Assembly (NCBI GenBank): GCA_026388595.1
Contig: JAPLJM010000045.1
Location: 1 to 45,740, forward strand
Length of the DNA: 45,740 nt
Origin: Deltaproteobacteria bacterium
GTDB lineage: Bacteria > Desulfobacterota > Syntrophia > Syntrophales > Fen-1087
Direction of reading: 5' to 3'
The translations under genes and the position numbers were made by a program. Below the pieces are notes generated by a model. It was not told the origin of the DNA and searched no databases. It saw only the letters and a program-made list of their open reading frames with translations. Positions 1 to 39,233 of the stretch are shown here, in pieces. Each line of letters begins with the position of its first letter. Position 1 is the stretch's first letter.

Positions 1-318
1 CACACCGAGCCGGTCCATATCCTCATTGTGCTCGCGGATATAACGCTCGGAGATATCCGCAATGCCGACTCCTGCCGCATTGCTTTTCTGGATGATCTTG
101 TCGTCCACATCGGTAAAGTTTTTGACATAGGTCACTTCGAATCCCCGGTACCGGAGATAATTTGTGATCATGTCAAACACAACCGCAGAACGGGCGTGAC
201 CGACATGACAGGCATCATAGGCGGTAATTCCGCAGGCATAGATTCCGACTTTCCCGTCTTGGATCGGCTGGAATTCTTCTTTTTTCCGGGTGAGTGTATT
301 GTATAATTTAATGGTCAT
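1..318 (-). CDS. cysS: cysteine--tRNA ligase (canonical CysRS), first 106 codons; the rest lies beyond the left window edge
   Basis: Minus-strand ATG at 318 follows a GGGAGG SD. Hand translation [76 protein letters not shown] matches the CysRS N-terminus, including the Zn-ligand Cys and a HIGH-type motif (HVGH). The + ORF 28..306 is its antisense shadow. Confidence 0.9.
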
Positions 319-23821: not shown

Positions 23822-27947
<4,126 letters not shown>

Positions 27948-35276: not shown

Positions 35277-35479
35277 TAACCCAGAGCCAGTCTAATAATT
35301 TTGCTGAGGCCGAAATCAACAACCCCCAAAAAAAGAGAGATAATCACCACGACAATGATCACGACGGACGTTGAGGCCAAAGTCTGTTTTGGCGTCGGCC
35401 ACGTGACCTTCCTGAGTTCAATCTTCGCCTCTTTTAAGAATTGCGTGACCTTCGCAAATATCAGTTTAATTTTATCCAT
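35276..35479 (-). CDS. secE: preprotein translocase subunit SecE
   Basis: 67 aa; [17 protein letters not shown] followed by a single TM helix. Confidence 0.9.
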
Positions 35480-35513
35480 TTAAAATCCATATCCGGAACT
35501 ATAAAAGAAAAAA

Positions 35514-35590
35514 TGGCAGGCCAGGAGGGACTCGAACCCCCAGCATCCGGATTTGGAGTCCGGCGCTCTATCCATTAGAGCTACTGGCCT
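35514..35590 (-). tRNA. tRNA-Trp (anticodon CCA)
   Basis: Reverse complement AGGCCAGTAGCTCTAATGGATAGAGCGCCGGACTCCAAATCCGG...GGTTCGAGTCCCTCCTGGCCTGCCA folds as a cloverleaf by hand; CCA is encoded. Confidence 0.93.
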
Positions 35591-35623
35591 ATTCCAAATG
35601 GTTTGTCCCTGCGCAAGGGAGAA

Positions 35624-35773
35624 CTATTTGGTCTCCCTGTGAACCTTGTGTCCCCGGCAGAATCTACAGAATTTTTTCAATTCCAGACGACTCTGCATGG
35701 TCCGTTTGTTCTTTGTGGTCGTATAATTTCTCTGTTTGCATTCGGTGCAAGCCAAAGTGATGATATTTCTCAT
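35624..35773 (-). CDS. rpmG: 50S ribosomal protein L33 (Zn-binding form)
   Basis: Not in the ORF track (49 aa). Hand translation [61 protein letters not shown]; the start lies 20 nt after the tRNA-Thr 3' end. Confidence 0.9.
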
Positions 35774-35793
35774 GATCACCCCTTTAAATGGTA

Positions 35794-35869
35794 TGGAGCC
35801 CACGACCAGGATTGAACTGGTGACCTCATCCTTACCAAGGATGTGCTCTACCGACTGAGCTACGTGGGC
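35794..35869 (-). tRNA. tRNA-Thr (anticodon GGT)
   Basis: Reverse complement GCCCACGTAGCTCAGTCGGTAGAGCACATCCTTGGTAAGGATGAGGTCACCAGTTCAATCCTGGTCGTGGGCTCCA. Confidence 0.93.
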
Positions 35870-35893
35870 TGATGATAGATCCCTCTATTTATT

Positions 35894-35969
35894 TGGAGCG
35901 GGAAACGGGATTCGAACCCGCGACCCTCAGCTTGGAAGGCTGACGCTCTAGCCACTGAGCTACTCCCGC
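35894..35969 (-). tRNA. tRNA-Gly (anticodon TCC)
   Basis: Reverse complement GCGGGAGTAGCTCAGTGGCTAGAGCGTCAGCCTTCCAAGCTGAGGGTCGCGGGTTCGAATCCCGTTTCCCGCTCCA. Confidence 0.93.
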
Positions 35970-36033
35970 TTCGACAAACAGCCAACGGCAACCTTTCCAG
36001 CCCGCATCCATGGGTCACGGTCCGGAAAAACAA

Positions 36034-36118
<85 letters not shown>

Positions 36119-36136
36119 AAAATCCATGCAAATTAC

Positions 36137-36212
36137 TGGAGCTGGCGATGGGACTTGAACCCGCAACCTGCTGATTACAAATCAGCTGCTCTGCCTGTTG
36201 AGCTACGCCAGC
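36137..36212 (-). tRNA. tRNA-Thr (anticodon TGT)
   Basis: Reverse complement GCTGGCGTAGCTCAACAGGCAGAGCAGCTGATTTGTAATCAGCAGGTTGCGGGTTCAAGTCCCATCGCCAGCTCCA. Confidence 0.93.
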
Positions 36213-36311
36213 CGGTATAAGACGCTAAGCCCCTGATTTCATTAAAAATAAAACAAATTTACCCTAAAAAAGCAAATACACACCACGTCGCGCGATTGAT
36301 GCGAATTGGTC

Positions 36312-36340
36312 ACATTAAATTCTATACTGATGTTTGTCAA
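36312..36340 (-). promoter_or_regulatory. strong sigma70-type promoter for the tRNA-Thr/Tyr/Gly/Thr (-rpmG...) transcription unit
   Basis: Minus strand reads TTGACA (36340..36335), exactly 17 nt, then TAATGT (36317..36312). It is preceded by an A/T-rich UP-like tract AAATAAATAAAAAAAAG. Confidence 0.7.
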
Positions 36341-36353
36341 GACTTTTTTTTAT

Positions 36354-38687
36354 TTATTTCAAACGCCATACCATTCCATCAGGGGTATCGGAAACCTCTA
36401 TACCCAAAACCAAGAGCCTGTCTCGGATATCATCCGATGCATTCCACTGACCGGCCCGTCTCAGGGCTTCTCTTTCCTGAAGAAGTTTCGAGACCTCCTC
36501 ACTGATGATCTCTTCCCTAAAATTCATCACCCCGAGAACACTATCCATTTTTTTCATGATCGCGAGGATGTTGTCTCTCTCTCTTTCACTCAACTGGGAT
36601 CGGGACAGGGGAATGCTGATTTTTTTCACAAATTCAAAAAGTGAAGCCAAGGCGTTTGAAATATTCAGATCGTCATCCATGGCATTGATGAAGGACTGAT
36701 TCACATCATAGATGCACTGGTCCGTGTCTGGAAAGCCATTTCCGGGGTGATAGCGGATCAATCTCTGAATGAAACCATTTAACTTGCGCACCGTATTTTT
36801 TGCCGTGTCCAAAGCACCAAAAGTAAAGTTCAGAGGCTTGCGATAATGGGCACTCAGCAGAAAAAAGCGGATCTCCGGACCGTGATATCCCCGCATCTCC
36901 AAATCATCTATCGTGAGCACGTTATTGAGGGAACGGGACATTTTCTTGCCGTCGATCATCAGCAGTTCTGTGTTCAGCCAGTAATTGGCCATCCTTTTCC
37001 CCGATACAGCCTTCCCAATCGCCATGACGTTTTCACAGTGGGGGAAAACAATATCCGCACCGCTGGCATGAATATCAAACGTCTCTCCAAGATATTTCAG
37101 GGAAATGGCAGCGCATTCCAGATGCCAACTGGGCCGGACATTGCCCCAGCGGGTTTTGAAATAAATGCCCCGCTTTAATTCATTGAGGGTTGATCTTTTC
37201 AGGAGGGTGAAATCAACAGGGCTGTCTTTCTCATAATCATCCTGGTCAACGGTTCTGTCCTGTTTCATTTTGCCGAGATCGACGCGGGACAGACAACCGT
37301 AGTCATCCAGCTTGGAGATATCAAAATAGACTGAACGCAGTTTTTCGTAAGCATAACCCCGCTCCATGAGCTTTTCGACATATTTGAGCATGTCCTCCAC
37401 ATGCTCACTGGCCTTTGGATAATCTTGATCCTTTTTTATGTTCAACTTATCGATATCTTGAAGAAATGCAGCCATACTCCCTTCAGTAAAGGCACGGAGC
37501 TCCATCCCCGCAAGCTCAGCCCCTTTGATGGAACGGTCCGCCAGATCAACGATATTCATCACATGCTGGACGATGTATCCCTTAAATTCAAAATACCGCC
37601 GAATCATGTCGGAAATAATGAAACGCCGGTAGCTGCCAATGTGTGGCACCACATGAACCGTTGGTCCGCAGGAGTGGATGCGAACCTTTTCGGCATTGAT
37701 GGGTTTAAAAAAGGTCTTTTCCCGTGTCAGGGTATTGTAGAGACGCAGGGTCGTTTGGGCCTTGTCCGTAAAAAGTTCCGTACTGAGATACCGCTCACCG
37801 CTGTCCGGGCAGATGACGACAATCAGGCCTTCTTCCAGCTCCTTAGCCTTTTGCAAGGCCACATGCATGGCCGCACCAGAGCTCATTCCCACCAGAGTGC
37901 CCTCTTCCCGGGCCATGCGCCGGGCCATTTCAAAAGCATCCTCATCGAGAATATTTATTTTTTCATCCAGACGGCTCCGGTCATAAATCCCAGGCTGGTA
38001 AGATTCTTTCATGTTTTTGAGGCCTTGAATCTTGTGCTGAAGATAGGGCTCTACCCCGATGATCGTAATCTGCGAATTCAATTCTTTGAGCCGCTTGGAA
38101 AGCCCCATCGCTGTGCCCGTCGTCCCCAGAGCCGCCACCACCATGGTCACCTGCCCATCGGTTTGGCGCCAGACCTCTTCCGCCGTTCCATAATAATGGG
38201 CAGCAATGTTGTCTGCATTATTGAATTGATCGGTGCCGAAATATTTACCCGGATGCTCGCGCATCAGACCATAGGCCATTTCGATTGCACCATCGGTCCC
38301 CTGAGCGGCCGGTGTGAAATATAATTCGGCGCCCATGGCTTTCAGTATTTTTTTCCGTTCCTCACTGGCGGCTTCCGATAGGGTCAGGCACAGCCGGTAA
38401 CCCTTGGCCGCGGCAATAAGGGCAAGCCCAATCCCGGTATTCCCGCTGGTGGCTTCAAGGATGATCTTTTCCTTCGTCAGTTCACCCCGTTTTTCCGCAC
38501 CTTCAATCATAAAAAGCGCCACCCTGTCCTTGATGGAGCCGCCGGGATTGAAACTCTCCAGTTTGGCAAATACCTTGACTTTTGGATTTGGATTCAACCT
38601 TGAAATTTCAATCAGGGGGGTATTGCCGATTGTACTTAAGATGCTTCCAGAAAACGTTTTCAAAAGTTCTTCCTTATTCGGATCCAA
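36354..38687 (-). CDS. fusion protein: N-terminal PLP-dependent cysteine synthase (CysK/CysM-like, ~300 aa) joined to a full-length cysteinyl-tRNA-synthetase-like module (~470 aa)
   Basis: Single 777-aa ORF. N-terminal part: IGNTPLIEI, PLP-Lys NPGGSIKDR, TSGNTGIGLA. C-terminal part: LRLYNTLTREKTFFKP, CGPTVHVVPHIGSYRRF, SWHLECAAI, DIHASGADIVFPHCENV, KMSRSLNN, and a C-terminal GIEVSDTPDGMVWRLK that matches the CysRS end. The start is either the TTG at 38687 or, with the better SD AAGGAAG, the TTG at 38663. Confidence 0.85.
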   Translation of the reverse strand: MDPNKEELLKTFSGSILSTIGNTPLIEISRLNPNPKVKVFAKLESFNPGGSIKDRVALFMIEGAEKRGELTKEKIILEATSGNTGIGLALIAAAKGYRLCLTLSEAASEERKKILKAMGAELYFTPAAQGTDGAIEMAYGLMREHPGKYFGTDQFNNADNIAAHYYGTAEEVWRQTDGQVTMVVAALGTTGTAMGLSKRLKELNSQITIIGVEPYLQHKIQGLKNMKESYQPGIYDRSRLDEKINILDEDAFEMARRMAREEGTLVGMSSGAAMHVALQKAKELEEGLIVVICPDSGERYLSTELFTDKAQTTLRLYNTLTREKTFFKPINAEKVRIHSCGPTVHVVPHIGSYRRFIISDMIRRYFEFKGYIVQHVMNIVDLADRSIKGAELAGMELRAFTEGSMAAFLQDIDKLNIKKDQDYPKASEHVEDMLKYVEKLMERGYAYEKLRSVYFDISKLDDYGCLSRVDLGKMKQDRTVDQDDYEKDSPVDFTLLKRSTLNELKRGIYFKTRWGNVRPSWHLECAAISLKYLGETFDIHASGADIVFPHCENVMAIGKAVSGKRMANYWLNTELLMIDGKKMSRSLNNVLTIDDLEMRGYHGPEIRFFLLSAHYRKPLNFTFGALDTAKNTVRKLNGFIQRLIRYHPGNGFPDTDQCIYDVNQSFINAMDDDLNISNALASLFEFVKKISIPLSRSQLSERERDNILAIMKKMDSVLGVMNFREEIISEEVSKLLQEREALRRAGQWNASDDIRDRLLVLGIEVSDTPDGMVWRLK

Positions 38688-38729: not shown

Positions 38730-39146
38730 TCAGCTATCAAGTTTCATGATCGGAATCTTGAAGAACTGGATCCCCTCCTCGTGGAGCATTTCCTCTTCCT
38801 GGTGGGTCGTGGTCCCTTTGATATTGCGGGCCGCTTCTTCGCCATGATGGATTTTCATCGCCACCTCGGTAAACGTTTCGCCCACATCATCAAAATTCTT
38901 TTCAAGATACTCATTAAACAATTGCATCATCTTCAGAGGGGCGAGCTCCCTGGTTTGTTTTTTTTCTGATGTTTTCAGATCCCGTCCCATAATGGCCAGT
39001 GTCGAGGGAACAATTTCAGCACCCGCTTCCCCGCAAACGGGGCAAGTAATAAGATCCCTTTCTTTCTGCTCTTCAAAAGCCGTCCTGTCCTTGAACCAGC
39101 CCTCAAACTTGTGATTTTTCTTACATTTGAGATCGTAGATGATCAC
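38730..39146 (-). CDS. zinc-ribbon protein resembling the DUF1178 family
   Basis: VIIYDLKCKKNHKFEGWFKDRTAFEEQKERDLITCPVCGE. Preferred start is the GTG at 39146, 11 nt after GGAGG. The track ORF extends to 39212. Confidence 0.6.
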   Translation of the reverse strand: MIIYDLKCKKNHKFEGWFKDRTAFEEQKERDLITCPVCGEAGAEIVPSTLAIMGRDLKTSEKKQTRELAPLKMMQLFNEYLEKNFDDVGETFTEVAMKIHHGEEAARNIKGTTTHQEEEMLHEEGIQFFKIPIMKLDS

Positions 39147-39233
39147 TGGATCTTGCGCCTCCGACTTTTTTCTTGATCTAACCTTAAAATAATGATGGAC
39201 AATTAAACACAACTTTTATATGGTGGTCGGTGT

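What the first reader, a model, noticed from the sequence alone, without database searches (positions are those of the whole stretch)
36354..38687. Cysteine synthase fused in frame to a divergent full-length CysRS, alongside a canonical cysS in the same window
One 777-aa ORF joins a CysK/CysM-type PLP enzyme to a complete class-I CysRS module through a short linker (...STELFTDKAQTT|LRLYNTLTREK...). The PLP domain carries the PLP-Lys in NPGGSIKDR and the TSGNTG loop. The CysRS module retains the tRNA-anticodon-domain-like C-terminus ending GMVWRLK, like E. coli TTWRRK. Its signature motifs are altered relative to the canonical enzyme:
- HIGH is HIGS (CGPTVHVVPHIGSYRRF), whereas the separate canonical cysS at 1..318 shows CHVGHARS.
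- KMSKS is KMSRS.
- The Zn/Cys-binding block FPHHENE (E. coli, recalled from memory) reads FPHCENV, so the residue aligned with the Glu Zn ligand is Val and a new Cys appears next to the His ligand.

This looks like a paralogue under different constraints. Possible roles, all inference:
- channelling newly made cysteine onto tRNA-Cys
- an MshC-like cysteine ligase for a low-molecular-weight thiol
- sulfur or persulfide chemistry, given that PLP-dependent cysteine persulfide synthase activity has been reported for CysRS

The gene sits directly upstream of the tRNA operon promoter.
Basis: partly seen in the sequence, partly recalled or inferred. Interest (0 to 1): 0.7.

Follow-up and report, generated by a model that had tools for sequence, protein, structure and literature searches.

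The report
Cysteine synthase fused to CysRS paralogue
A Syntrophus-like bacterium has a real, conserved gene that joins a cysteine-making enzyme to a second, divergent copy of the enzyme that loads cysteine onto tRNA. The fusion family is widespread among relatives of sulfate reducers and appears unstudied, and in many lineages the tRNA-loading half has lost its catalytic motifs, so its true job is open.

Summary
A minus-strand ORF (36354-38687; likely start 38663, 769 aa) fuses an intact CysK/M-type PLP enzyme to a full-length CysRS module. Independent metagenome contigs show no indel at the junction. More than 120 protein clusters share the architecture, including cultured Syntrophus aciditrophicus at the same syntenic position.

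A canonical E. coli-type cysS lies on the same contig in three genomes, so the module is a paralogue (38% identity to the canonical enzyme).

The "new Cys" at position 235 is not family-wide.

What is new:
- The fusion is one old clade across Thermodesulfobacteriota, Myxococcota and Bdellovibrionota.
- The PLP motifs are invariant in every member.
- The zinc/cysteine pocket is kept in 24/27 members, but KMS[KR]S survives in only 7/27, and Lys269 is never present.
- A Desulfovibrionales-type branch has lost everything except FPH..N.

The window's copy is on the best-preserved branch, with HIGS, KMSRS, three of four zinc ligands and the anticodon domain.

Most likely it is a cysteine synthase coupled to an auxiliary, still active CysRS (confidence about 0.45). 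The main rival is a HisZ-like, non-catalytic cysteine-sensing domain (about 0.3). I found no publication on the fusion.

The parts
36354..38663 (-). Fusion CDS: cysteine synthase (CysK/M type) joined to a CysRS paralogue. 769 aa from TTG 38663; the mechanical ORF extends to TTG 38687 (777 aa).
38669..38675 (-). Probable ribosome-binding site AAGGAAG, 5 nt upstream of the TTG at 38663.
   Evidence: homologue N-termini
37803..38639 (-). PLP-dependent beta-replacement domain (Pfam PALP, residues 17-295). It carries the PLP-Lys in GGSIKDR (38523-38549), TSGNTG (38433-38450), GTTGT (38112-38126), the subtype loop HKIQGLKNMKESY (37998-38036) and MSSGAA (37869-37886).
   Evidence: All these motifs are invariant in the 32-34 fusions whose PLP domain is covered.
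37749..37802 (-). Junction/linker (...PDSGERYLSTELFTDKAQTT|LRLYN...). The AlphaFold2 model has low confidence here (pLDDT below 50 for residues 288-302 of the 769-aa form).
36798..37748 (-). CysRS-type class I catalytic (Rossmann + CP) domain. Motifs: SCGPTVHVVPHIGS (37632-37673), ADRSIKGA (37518-37541), WHLEC (37113-37127), FPHCENV (37026-37046), KMSRS (36930-36944).
36525..36692 (-). DALR_2 helical (stem-contact/anticodon) domain of CysRS.
36363..36503 (-). CysS_C alpha/beta anticodon-binding domain ending GMVWRLK.
1..318 (-). N-terminal 106 codons of the canonical, E. coli-type housekeeping cysS ([13 protein letters not shown]), cut by the window edge. It follows asd (564-1607), as in two other Syntrophales contigs.
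38730..39212 (-). DUF1178 zinc-ribbon gene directly upstream. This pairing is conserved in the Syntrophus-type loci (L001, L090, L092) but not in other lineages.
35514..36212 (-). Downstream tRNA cluster Thr(tgt)-Tyr-Gly-Thr(ggt)-Trp, which precedes secE-nusG-rplKA. It contains no tRNA-Cys.

Best explanation
The gene encodes a two-module protein from an old, conserved fusion family.

**Shown**
- The N-terminal module is a catalytically intact CysK/M-type PLP beta-replacement enzyme.
- The C-terminal module is a complete CysRS paralogue of the 'CGPT..HIGN' subtype. It exists beside a canonical housekeeping cysS in the same genome.

**Inferred**
- In this Syntrophales branch the module still binds zinc and cysteine through Cys28, Cys209, His234 and Trp205 (E. 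coli numbering).
- It still binds ATP through HIGS and KMSRS, and tRNA-Cys through its retained anticodon domains.
- The protein would therefore make cysteine and hand it directly to its own auxiliary CysRS. This synthesis-coupled charging route would supplement the housekeeping enzyme when free cysteine is scarce.

Decay of the ATP motifs in sister lineages shows that aminoacylation is not what holds the fusion together across the whole family. A second role for the module, such as cysteine binding, regulation or scaffolding of the synthase, probably also exists here.
For: **The fusion is real and conserved.**
- Domain scans and curated models: cysS 385 bits (cutoff 340), cysKM 361.5 bits (cutoff 344).
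- Independent contigs show no indel at the junction.
- All of the 120 best-scoring protein clusters are full-length fusions, including cultured S. aciditrophicus and S. gentianae. S. aciditrophicus carries it at the same syntenic position.

**It is a paralogue.** A canonical cysS lies on the same contig in three genomes, at 38% identity to the module.

**Catalytic residues are fixed in this branch.** In 46 sequences at 70% identity or more, the following are invariant: C332, P340-H341-x-G343, W513-H-L-E-C517, F540-P-H-C543-x-N-V546 and K574-M-S-R-S578.

**Both halves are constrained.**
- Mean pairwise identity is 75% for the CysRS core and 80% for the PLP domain.
- The anticodon domains are present, and the model matches the CysRS-tRNA complex 1u0b at TMt 0.85.

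**The same architecture arose twice.** P0124 is an independent fusion that uses a fully canonical CysRS, which suggests that coupling the two activities is itself selected.

**The PLP motifs are invariant** in every fusion.
Against: - Only 3 of the 4 protein zinc ligands remain (E238->V). The catalytic second Lys of KMSKS is Arg, and the fourth HIGH residue is Ser.
- In the main fusion clade KMS[KR]S survives in only 7/27 members and the first His of HIGH in 16/27. A Desulfovibrionales-type branch has also lost C28, C209 and KMSKS, yet keeps the full-length module. This shows that a non-aminoacylating function can maintain the module.
- The module evolves faster than the housekeeping CysRS.
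- AlphaFold2 gives no confident inter-domain geometry: pTM is 0.62 and the linker has pLDDT below 50. Physical channelling is therefore unsupported.
- No tRNA-Cys gene is linked to the fusion in 31 loci.
- There is no biochemical data, and the expression evidence is inconclusive.
Confidence: 0.45

Rival explanations
1. HisZ-like regulatory paralogue. The CysRS-derived module does not aminoacylate. It is a zinc-thiolate cysteine sensor (and perhaps a tRNA-Cys sensor) or a scaffold that allosterically controls the fused cysteine synthase, giving product feedback at the synthase itself.
For: - Family-wide, the cysteine/zinc pocket is far better kept than the ATP site. C28+C209+H234 are present in 24/27 members, against KMS[KR]S in 7/27 and Lys269 in 0/27.
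- F232, P233, H234 and N237 are invariant in 34/34.
- The module stays full length even where all catalytic motifs are gone.
- A canonical cysS is present for translation.
- Precedent, from my own knowledge: HisZ, a HisRS paralogue that regulates HisG.
Against: - In the window's own branch HxG and KMSRS are invariant across 46 sequences, and the catalytic core is 75% conserved. That is not expected if ATP binding were irrelevant.
- The Desulfovibrionales-type branch has also lost the zinc ligands, so cysteine sensing cannot be the universal role either.
Confidence: 0.3
2. MshC-like ligase. The module activates cysteine and ligates it to a non-tRNA acceptor, such as a low-molecular-weight thiol precursor or a peptide.
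For: - MshC is a known CysRS paralogue, and the structural match is good (8hfn and 3c8z at TMt 0.83-0.84).
- The zinc and ATP motifs are largely intact.
Against: - The MshC model scores 188 bits against a cutoff of 485.
- The DALR_2 and CysS_C anticodon domains are retained. From memory, MshC lacks the C-terminal one.
- No glycosyltransferase, deacetylase or thiol-pathway genes are nearby.
Confidence: 0.08
3. tRNA-dependent amino-acid conversion. The CysRS-like module only docks tRNA-Cys. The PLP domain then converts an aminoacyl moiety on the tRNA (for example O-phosphoseryl) into cysteinyl, making the protein an analogue of SepCysS.
For: - Invariant PLP chemistry is combined with a retained tRNA-binding architecture and a dispensable aaRS active site.
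- RNA-dependent cysteine synthesis exists in some bacteria (PMC5424206).
Against: - No SepRS is linked to any fusion locus.
- The Desulfobacterales group lacks the last roughly 10 residues of the anticodon domain, and the conserved Trp458 is kept in only 15/27 members.
- No structural evidence places the CCA end near the PLP site.
- Surveys of cysteine-encoding systems do not mention the fusion.
Confidence: 0.05
4. Cysteine persulfide synthase. The protein makes CysSSH or polysulfides, extending the PLP-dependent activity reported for CysRS.
For: - A genuine PLP enzyme is fused to a CysRS.
- CARS and E. coli CysRS are reported to be PLP-dependent persulfide synthases (PMC5660078).
Against: - The two lysines modelled as PLP sites in E. 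coli CysRS (K73, K269) are both Arg here, and Lys269 is absent from the whole clade.
- The PLP domain has the ordinary cysteine synthase signature.
Confidence: 0.05
5. Artefact: two adjacent genes joined by an assembly or sequencing error.
For: The window does contain at least one likely assembly lesion, a frame break in rpoC.
Against: - Independent contigs have no indel across the ORF.
- The complete genome of S. aciditrophicus and more than 120 protein clusters show the same uninterrupted ORF.
Confidence: 0.01

Closest known systems
Canonical bacterial cysteinyl-tRNA synthetase (CysRS; TIGR00435; PDB 1li5, 1u0b, 8qhp)
   Same: - Full domain set: Rossmann + CP, stem-contact/DALR and the C-terminal anticodon domain.
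- Scores above the curated cutoff (385 vs 340 bits).
- Retains Cys28, Trp205, Cys209, His234, HIGx and KMSxS.
- TMt is 0.85-0.92 to solved CysRSs.
   Different: - Fused behind a PLP enzyme.
- Carries E238->V, H235->C and K269->R, and a clade-specific insertion 'LLKRSTLNELKRGIYFKTRWGNVRP' before WHLEC.
- Coexists with a separate housekeeping cysS (38% identity).
- Its sister lineages lose HIGH and KMSKS.
Cysteine synthase CysK/CysM (O-acetylserine sulfhydrylase; TIGR01136)
   Same: - The PLP-Lys, Asn loop, phosphate loop and Ser motif are all present and invariant.
- Aligns without gaps to E. coli and Salmonella CysM over 293 residues.
- 41-46% identity to solved OASS structures.
   Different: - Scores below the cysM (358 vs 394) and cysK (315 vs 351) equivalog cutoffs.
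- Has its own loop, 'HKIQGLKNMKESY'.
- Carries a 460-residue C-terminal CysRS module.
Sulfur-carrier (CysO thiocarboxylate)-dependent CysM systems with JAB (Mec) and E1-like genes (M. tuberculosis type; operon classes 4c/4d of PMC1779556)
   Same: Stand-alone synthases sharing the HKIQGLKN loop are flanked by Prok-JAB and ThiF genes in 21 of about 46 loci each.
   Different: - None of the 37 fusion loci, nor the window, has a JAB or ThiF neighbour.
- M. tuberculosis CysM is not among the best 60 PDB matches.
- The sulfur donor and the OAS-or-OPS preference of the fused domain are unknown.
HisZ (HisRS paralogue, regulatory subunit of ATP phosphoribosyltransferase; from my own knowledge, Sissler et al. 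1999)
   Same: An aaRS paralogue that is physically coupled to the biosynthesis of its own amino acid, with loss of aminoacylation motifs (seen in most fusion lineages).
   Different: - HisZ is a separate subunit that lacks the anticodon domain.
- Here the module is covalently fused and complete, and in this window it keeps the catalytic motifs.
MshC (cysteine:GlcN-Ins ligase, a CysRS paralogue)
   Same: A CysRS-derived catalytic core with a zinc site.
   Different: - Scores 188 bits against a cutoff of 485.
- The fusion keeps its tRNA anticodon domains.
- There is no mycothiol gene context.
SepRS/SepCysS tRNA-dependent cysteine synthesis
   Same: It couples cysteine formation to tRNA-Cys charging (PMC5424206, PMC8762117).
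   Different: - The enzyme families are different (class II SepRS; fold-type I SepCysS).
- No SepRS linkage is seen.
- These surveys do not mention the fusion.

Membership tests
CysRS (cysteine--tRNA ligase) | Score above the curated equivalog cutoff over the full length | tested here: met
   TIGR00435 scores 385.1 bits (cutoff 340) over residues 314-775. The cutoff does not separate active from decayed relatives: Desulfobulbus, with KMSAE, scores 404.
CysRS (cysteine--tRNA ligase) | HIGH signature | tested here: inconclusive
   The motif is HIGS. The first His and the Gly are kept. The fourth residue is Asn in many ordinary CysRSs of this subtype, so Ser is a mild variant.
CysRS (cysteine--tRNA ligase) | KMSKS signature with its second (catalytic) Lys | tested here: not met
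   The motif is KMSRS. Lys269 is Arg here, and Lys is never found at this position in the 27-member main fusion clade.
CysRS (cysteine--tRNA ligase) | Four protein zinc ligands Cys28, Cys209, His234, Glu238, plus Trp205 (ligand identities recalled from Newberry et al. 2002) | tested here: not met
   Cys28, Cys209, His234 and Trp205 are present, but Glu238 is Val. The adjacent H235C change is restricted to this sub-branch.
CysRS (cysteine--tRNA ligase) | tRNA anticodon-binding domains | tested here: met
   DALR_2 (E 1.7e-9) and CysS_C (E 4e-7) are present. The C-terminus GMVWRLK aligns to E. coli TTWRRK.
CysRS (cysteine--tRNA ligase) | Cysteine activation and tRNA-Cys charging | not testable with these tools
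   Needs biochemistry or complementation.
CysRS (cysteine--tRNA ligase) | Sole or housekeeping CysRS of the genome | tested here: not met
   A separate canonical cysS lies on the same contig in the window and in two other genomes.
Cysteine synthase CysK/CysM (fold-type II PLP) | PLP-Lys, TSGNTG Asn loop, GT[TS]GT phosphate loop, SSGAA Ser motif | tested here: met
   All four are present in the window and invariant in all fusions.
Cysteine synthase CysK/CysM (fold-type II PLP) | Curated model cutoffs | tested here: met
   The cysKM subfamily model scores 361.5 bits (cutoff 344). The cysM (358 vs 394) and cysK (315 vs 351) equivalogs are not reached, so the isozyme type is unassigned.
MshC | Score above the TIGR03447 cutoff; no C-terminal anticodon domain | tested here: not met
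   The score is 187.7 bits against a cutoff of 485.1, and the CysS_C domain is present.
HisZ-like non-catalytic aaRS paralogue | Loss of aminoacylation signature motifs | tested here: not met
   Not met for the window's copy: HIGS and KMSRS are kept and are invariant in its clade. It is met in most sister lineages.
CysO-dependent CysM system | Neighbouring ThiS/MoaD-type carrier, JAB peptidase and E1-like genes | tested here: not met
   No JAB or ThiF homologue is found in the window or in 37 fusion loci. They are present next to stand-alone relatives in 21 loci each.
CysRS-type persulfide synthase (CPERS) | Lys73/Lys76 and Lys266/Lys269 as PLP-binding lysines (PMC5660078) | tested here: not met
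   K73->R and K269->R; K76 and K266 are kept.

The most novel reading that the evidence does not exclude
The CysRS-derived module is not primarily a synthetase. It would be a cysteine-specific (zinc-thiolate), and possibly tRNA-Cys-responsive, sensor or scaffold that gates the fused cysteine synthase. That would make it a covalent, cysteine-pathway counterpart of HisZ. It would also explain why the module persists at full length across Thermodesulfobacteriota, Myxococcota and Bdellovibrionota while HIGH and KMSKS decay. The window's protein would then be an evolutionary intermediate that still retains ATP-site motifs.
Probability: 0.3. Interest if true: 0.75.

Novelty: new variant of a known kind. 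Interest (0 to 1): 0.6.

Why it matters
Covalent fusion of an aminoacyl-tRNA synthetase to the enzyme that makes its amino acid is rare.

This family offers a natural series. It runs from fully canonical members (P0121, and the independent fusion P0124), through the partly altered window and Syntrophus form, to a completely decayed CysRS module. In all of them the cysteine synthase half stays intact.

That makes two questions directly testable:
- Do synthesis and tRNA charging of a scarce, reactive amino acid get physically coupled in energy-limited anaerobes?
- How does an aaRS turn into a regulatory or scaffold pseudo-enzyme?

There is also a practical point. Annotation pipelines call all these proteins 'cysteine--tRNA ligase', including members that cannot be ligases, and they overlook the cysteine synthase domain. 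This can mislead metabolic reconstructions of syntrophs and sulfate reducers.

Tried and rejected
1. **Assembly artefact.** Rejected by independent contigs and by conservation.
2. **HIGS as a significant alteration.** Rejected, because HIGN is standard in this CysRS subtype.
3. **Cys235 as a compensating fourth zinc ligand.** Rejected as a family trait: Smithella has Gly and Desulfarculia has Phe.
4. **My recollection that the HKIQGLKNM loop matches M. tuberculosis CysM.** Not supported by sequence. Mtb CysM is not in the best 60 PDB matches, and HKIQG is simply the CysK motif followed by a 3-residue insertion. Gene context of the stand-alone relatives does, however, link the subtype to JAB/E1 sulfur-carrier systems.
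5. **A conserved operon partner for the fusion.** None is found family-wide. DUF1178 is upstream only in Syntrophales, and an unannotated 330-370-aa protein is adjacent only in the Desulfobacterales and P0121 groups.
6. **Linked tRNA-Cys gene.** None in 31 loci.
7. **Riboswitch or T-box leader.** No Rfam match.
9. **Expression evidence.** Only one tiny run of guessed RNA type was found, so this is inconclusive.
10. **First search with the 106-aa canonical fragment.** It returned only fragments. A 325-aa query worked.
11. **Literature searches.** They returned no description of the fusion.
Full report
**1.

The window has a 777-codon ORF on the minus strand at 36354..38687. Pfam finds four domains in order: PALP (17-295), tRNA-synt_1e (327-630), DALR_2 (666-721) and CysS_C (729-775). 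The curated NCBIfam models for cysteine--tRNA ligase (385 bits, cutoff 340) and for the cysKM cysteine synthase subfamily (361.5 bits, cutoff 344) are both passed.

Homologues are 769 aa and begin MK(T/K)LS. An AAGGAAG ribosome-binding site precedes an in-frame TTG at 38663, which is therefore the likely start.

Cys28, Trp205, Cys209 and His234 are retained.

The 'canonical cysS at 1..318' is real, but it is on the minus strand and is cut by the window edge.

**2. It is not an artefact**

Logan contigs from independent freshwater-sediment, wetland and soil metagenomes cover the gene. One 3096-nt contig spans the whole ORF with seven substitutions and no indel, and another crosses the junction near 37750 without a gap.

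All of the 120 best-scoring protein clusters are full-length fusions at 70-100% identity. They include the cultured Syntrophus aciditrophicus and S. gentianae, and every source calls them only 'cysteine--tRNA ligase'.

In the complete S. aciditrophicus genome the gene sits in the same syntenic block as here: DUF4416-yicC-gmk-rpoZ-pyrF-rlmB-pilC-DUF1178-fusion-...-tRNAs-secE-nusG-rplKAJL-rpoB. The window is therefore from an uncultured Syntrophales relative.

**3. It is a paralogue**

A canonical, E. coli-type cysS lies on the same contig as the fusion, about 36-44 kb away and always after rplM-rpsI-asd. It has CGITAYD.CHVGH, WHIEC, FPHHENE and KMSKS, and is about 493 aa long. This holds in the window, in a 62-kb ENA contig and in a 288-kb JGI contig.

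Within one genome the two CysRSs share 38% identity. Between matched genomes, identities are as follows:

| Region compared | Identity |
|---|---|
| Canonical CysRS, N-terminal 106 residues | 73-76% |
| Fusion module, same region | 60-67% |
| Fusion module, whole | 63-71% |
| PLP domain (one genome pair) | 79% |

Both halves are thus constrained, and the CysRS module somewhat less so than the housekeeping enzyme. Within the Syntrophales-type clade, mean pairwise identity is 80% for the PLP domain, 75% for the CysRS core, 62% for DALR and 56% for the C-terminal domain.

**4.

The module belongs to the 'CGPTVY..HIGN' CysRS subtype. Many ordinary stand-alone CysRS representatives have HIGN together with FPHHENE and KMSKS, so a non-His fourth residue is normal.

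The Cys at position 235 is confined to the window and S. aciditrophicus sub-branch. Smithella has Gly and Desulfarculia has Phe.

The closest 120 clusters do fix HxG[S/N], FPHCEN[V/I] and KMSRS.

**5. The family picture, which is the main new result**

An exhaustive search of 1.84 billion representatives and a scan of GTDB species genomes show the fusion in many lineages:
- Smithella and Syntrophaceae
- Desulfobacterales, including Desulforapulum autotrophicum and Desulfobacula MAGs
- Desulfobulbales and Desulfarculia
- Caldimicrobium
- Desulfovibrionales and Desulfocurvus
- Polyangiaceae
- a Pseudobdellovibrionaceae MAG

A neighbour-joining tree puts 30 of 31 fusion modules in one clade. That clade shares the insertion 'LLKRxTLxELKRGxxxKTxWGNVRP'. 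P0124, which has fully canonical motifs, is an independent second fusion.

I aligned 34 fusions to E. coli CysRS. Conservation is as follows:

| Feature | Conservation |
|---|---|
| PLP motifs (Lys of GGS[IV]KDR, TSGNTG, GT[TS]GT, MSSGAA, HKIQGLKN) | invariant |
| F232, P233, H234, N237 | 34/34 |
| C28 + C209 + H234 together (27-member main clade) | 24/27 |
| First His of HIGH (main clade) | 16/27 |
| KMS[KR]S intact (main clade) | 7/27 |
| Lys269 (main clade) | 0/27 |

The Desulfobacterales group also lacks the last roughly 10 residues. A Desulfovibrionales-type group (six sequences) has lost C28, HIGH, C209 and KMSKS but keeps the full-length module.

Scores against the curated cysS model (cutoff 340) run as follows:

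| Member | cysS bits |
|---|---|
| P0124 | 517 |
| P0121 | 452 |
| Desulfobulbus | 404 |
| Desulfarculia | 389 |
| Window | 385 |
| Smithella | 367 |
| Desulforapulum | 344 |
| P0122 | 300 |
| Desulfovibrionales type | 113-141 |

All members pass the cysKM model. The window's copy therefore sits on the best-preserved side of a family in which the aaRS active site is decaying.

**6. Structure**

AlphaFold2 with a 46-sequence alignment folds both halves with mean pLDDT 81.8. However, pTM is 0.62, and both the junction (288-302) and the mobile loop 208-227 are below pLDDT 50.

Foldseek matches the two halves separately, to CysRS (8qhp, 1u0b) and to O-acetylserine sulfhydrylases. No solved structure covers both halves.

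**7. Context and chemistry**

The neighbours in the window are housekeeping genes. No Rfam leader is present, and no tRNA-Cys gene is linked in 31 loci. No partner gene is conserved family-wide.

The PLP domain aligns without gaps to E. coli and Salmonella CysM, but it scores below both the cysM and the cysK equivalog cutoffs.

Stand-alone synthases that share its HKIQGLKN loop are widespread. In 21 loci each they are flanked by Prok-JAB and ThiF genes. This is the sulfur-carrier cysteine system described in PMC1779556. None of the fusion loci has these genes. The sulfur donor of the fused domain therefore remains open.

**8. Mechanism**

*Shown:* an intact cysteine synthase-type domain and a complete CysRS paralogue are in one polypeptide, beside a housekeeping cysS.

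*Inferred (about 0.45):* in this branch the module still activates cysteine and charges tRNA-Cys, giving a synthesis-coupled auxiliary route. The supporting points are the invariance of HxG, KMSRS, WHLEC and FPH in the clade, the retained anticodon domains, and the independent canonical fusion P0124.

*Main rival (about 0.3):* the module is a HisZ-like, non-catalytic cysteine sensor or scaffold. This is favoured by the family-wide decay of the ATP motifs while the zinc pocket is retained.

*Disfavoured:*
- An MshC-like ligase.
- A SepCysS-like conversion on tRNA.
- CysRS-type persulfide synthase. K73 and K269, the modelled PLP sites, are both Arg.

**9. Novelty**

Both domains are well known. 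The architecture is present in public databases but is annotated only as cysS.

I found no paper describing it. The searches covered fusion and paralogue terms and two surveys of cysteine-encoding systems. The library does not hold most subscription journals, so an earlier description cannot be excluded.

I rate it a new variant of a known kind: an aaRS paralogue coupled to biosynthesis of its amino acid. Interest is about 0.6.

Noticed in passing
window 23822-27944 (minus strand), break near 26500: rpoC is split into two overlapping ORFs in different frames: 518 aa with Rpb1 domains 1-2, and 921 aa with domains 3-5. After '...[10 protein letters not shown]', roughly 50 nt of conserved sequence appear to be missing before '...[15 protein letters not shown]'. 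This is probably an assembly or sequencing lesion in an essential gene, so the window is not error-free.
   Followed up: partly
L004 6902-8014; also L011, L012, L018, L021, L024, L028, L029, next to the fusion: A 320-370-aa protein with no Pfam match (N-terminus 'M.P.YFPFTY...') lies directly adjacent, on the same strand, to the fusion in 8 loci of the P0121 and Desulfobacterales groups. It has no homologue in the window. It may be a functional partner of the decayed-motif fusions.
   Followed up: partly
L058-L088 (stand-alone HKIQGLKN-type cysteine synthase loci): Prok-JAB and ThiF (E1-like) genes flank the stand-alone relatives of the PLP domain in 21 loci each, which is the signature of a CysO/Mec-type sulfur-carrier cysteine synthesis system. 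They are absent from all fusion loci.
   Followed up: yes
L005-L007 (protein P0124): This is an independent second fusion of a cysteine synthase to a fully canonical CysRS (HIGN, FPHHQNE, KMSKS; cysS 517 bits) that groups with ordinary CysRSs in the tree. A nitroreductase gene lies next to it, and one also lies next to the P0121 fusion in L004.
   Followed up: partly
L008 6398-6982 and L033 (gene downstream of the fusion): A calcineurin-like metallophosphoesterase follows the fully decayed Desulfovibrionales-type fusions in two loci.
   Followed up: no
window 38730-39212; L001 9382-9798; L090; L092: A DUF1178 zinc-ribbon gene is always immediately upstream of the fusion in Syntrophus-type genomes (gap 30-245 nt). 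Its function is unknown, and the two genes may be co-transcribed.
   Followed up: no
proteins P0148, P0150: These are tandem CysK-CysK double-PALP proteins of about 700-740 aa, a different multi-domain cysteine synthase architecture.
   Followed up: no
L015, L017, L026 (just downstream of the fusion; further away in L022): In the Desulfobulbales-type loci L015, L017 and L026 a tRNA-Arg(tct) gene follows the fusion within about 100 nt. In L022 the same tRNA gene lies about 5 kb downstream. As in the window, the fusion there sits next to tRNA genes that are not tRNA-Cys.
   Followed up: no
window 35400-37509: A contig from a very small run of guessed RNA type spans from the tRNA cluster into the CysRS module of a roughly 97-98% identical strain. 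If it really is RNA, transcription reads through from the fusion gene into the tRNA operon.
   Followed up: partly
L089 3001-4389: The canonical cysS on the 62-kb ENA contig is broken into three ORFs by frameshifts. These are likely long-read assembly errors, because the orthologue on the 288-kb contig is intact (493 aa).
   Followed up: partly
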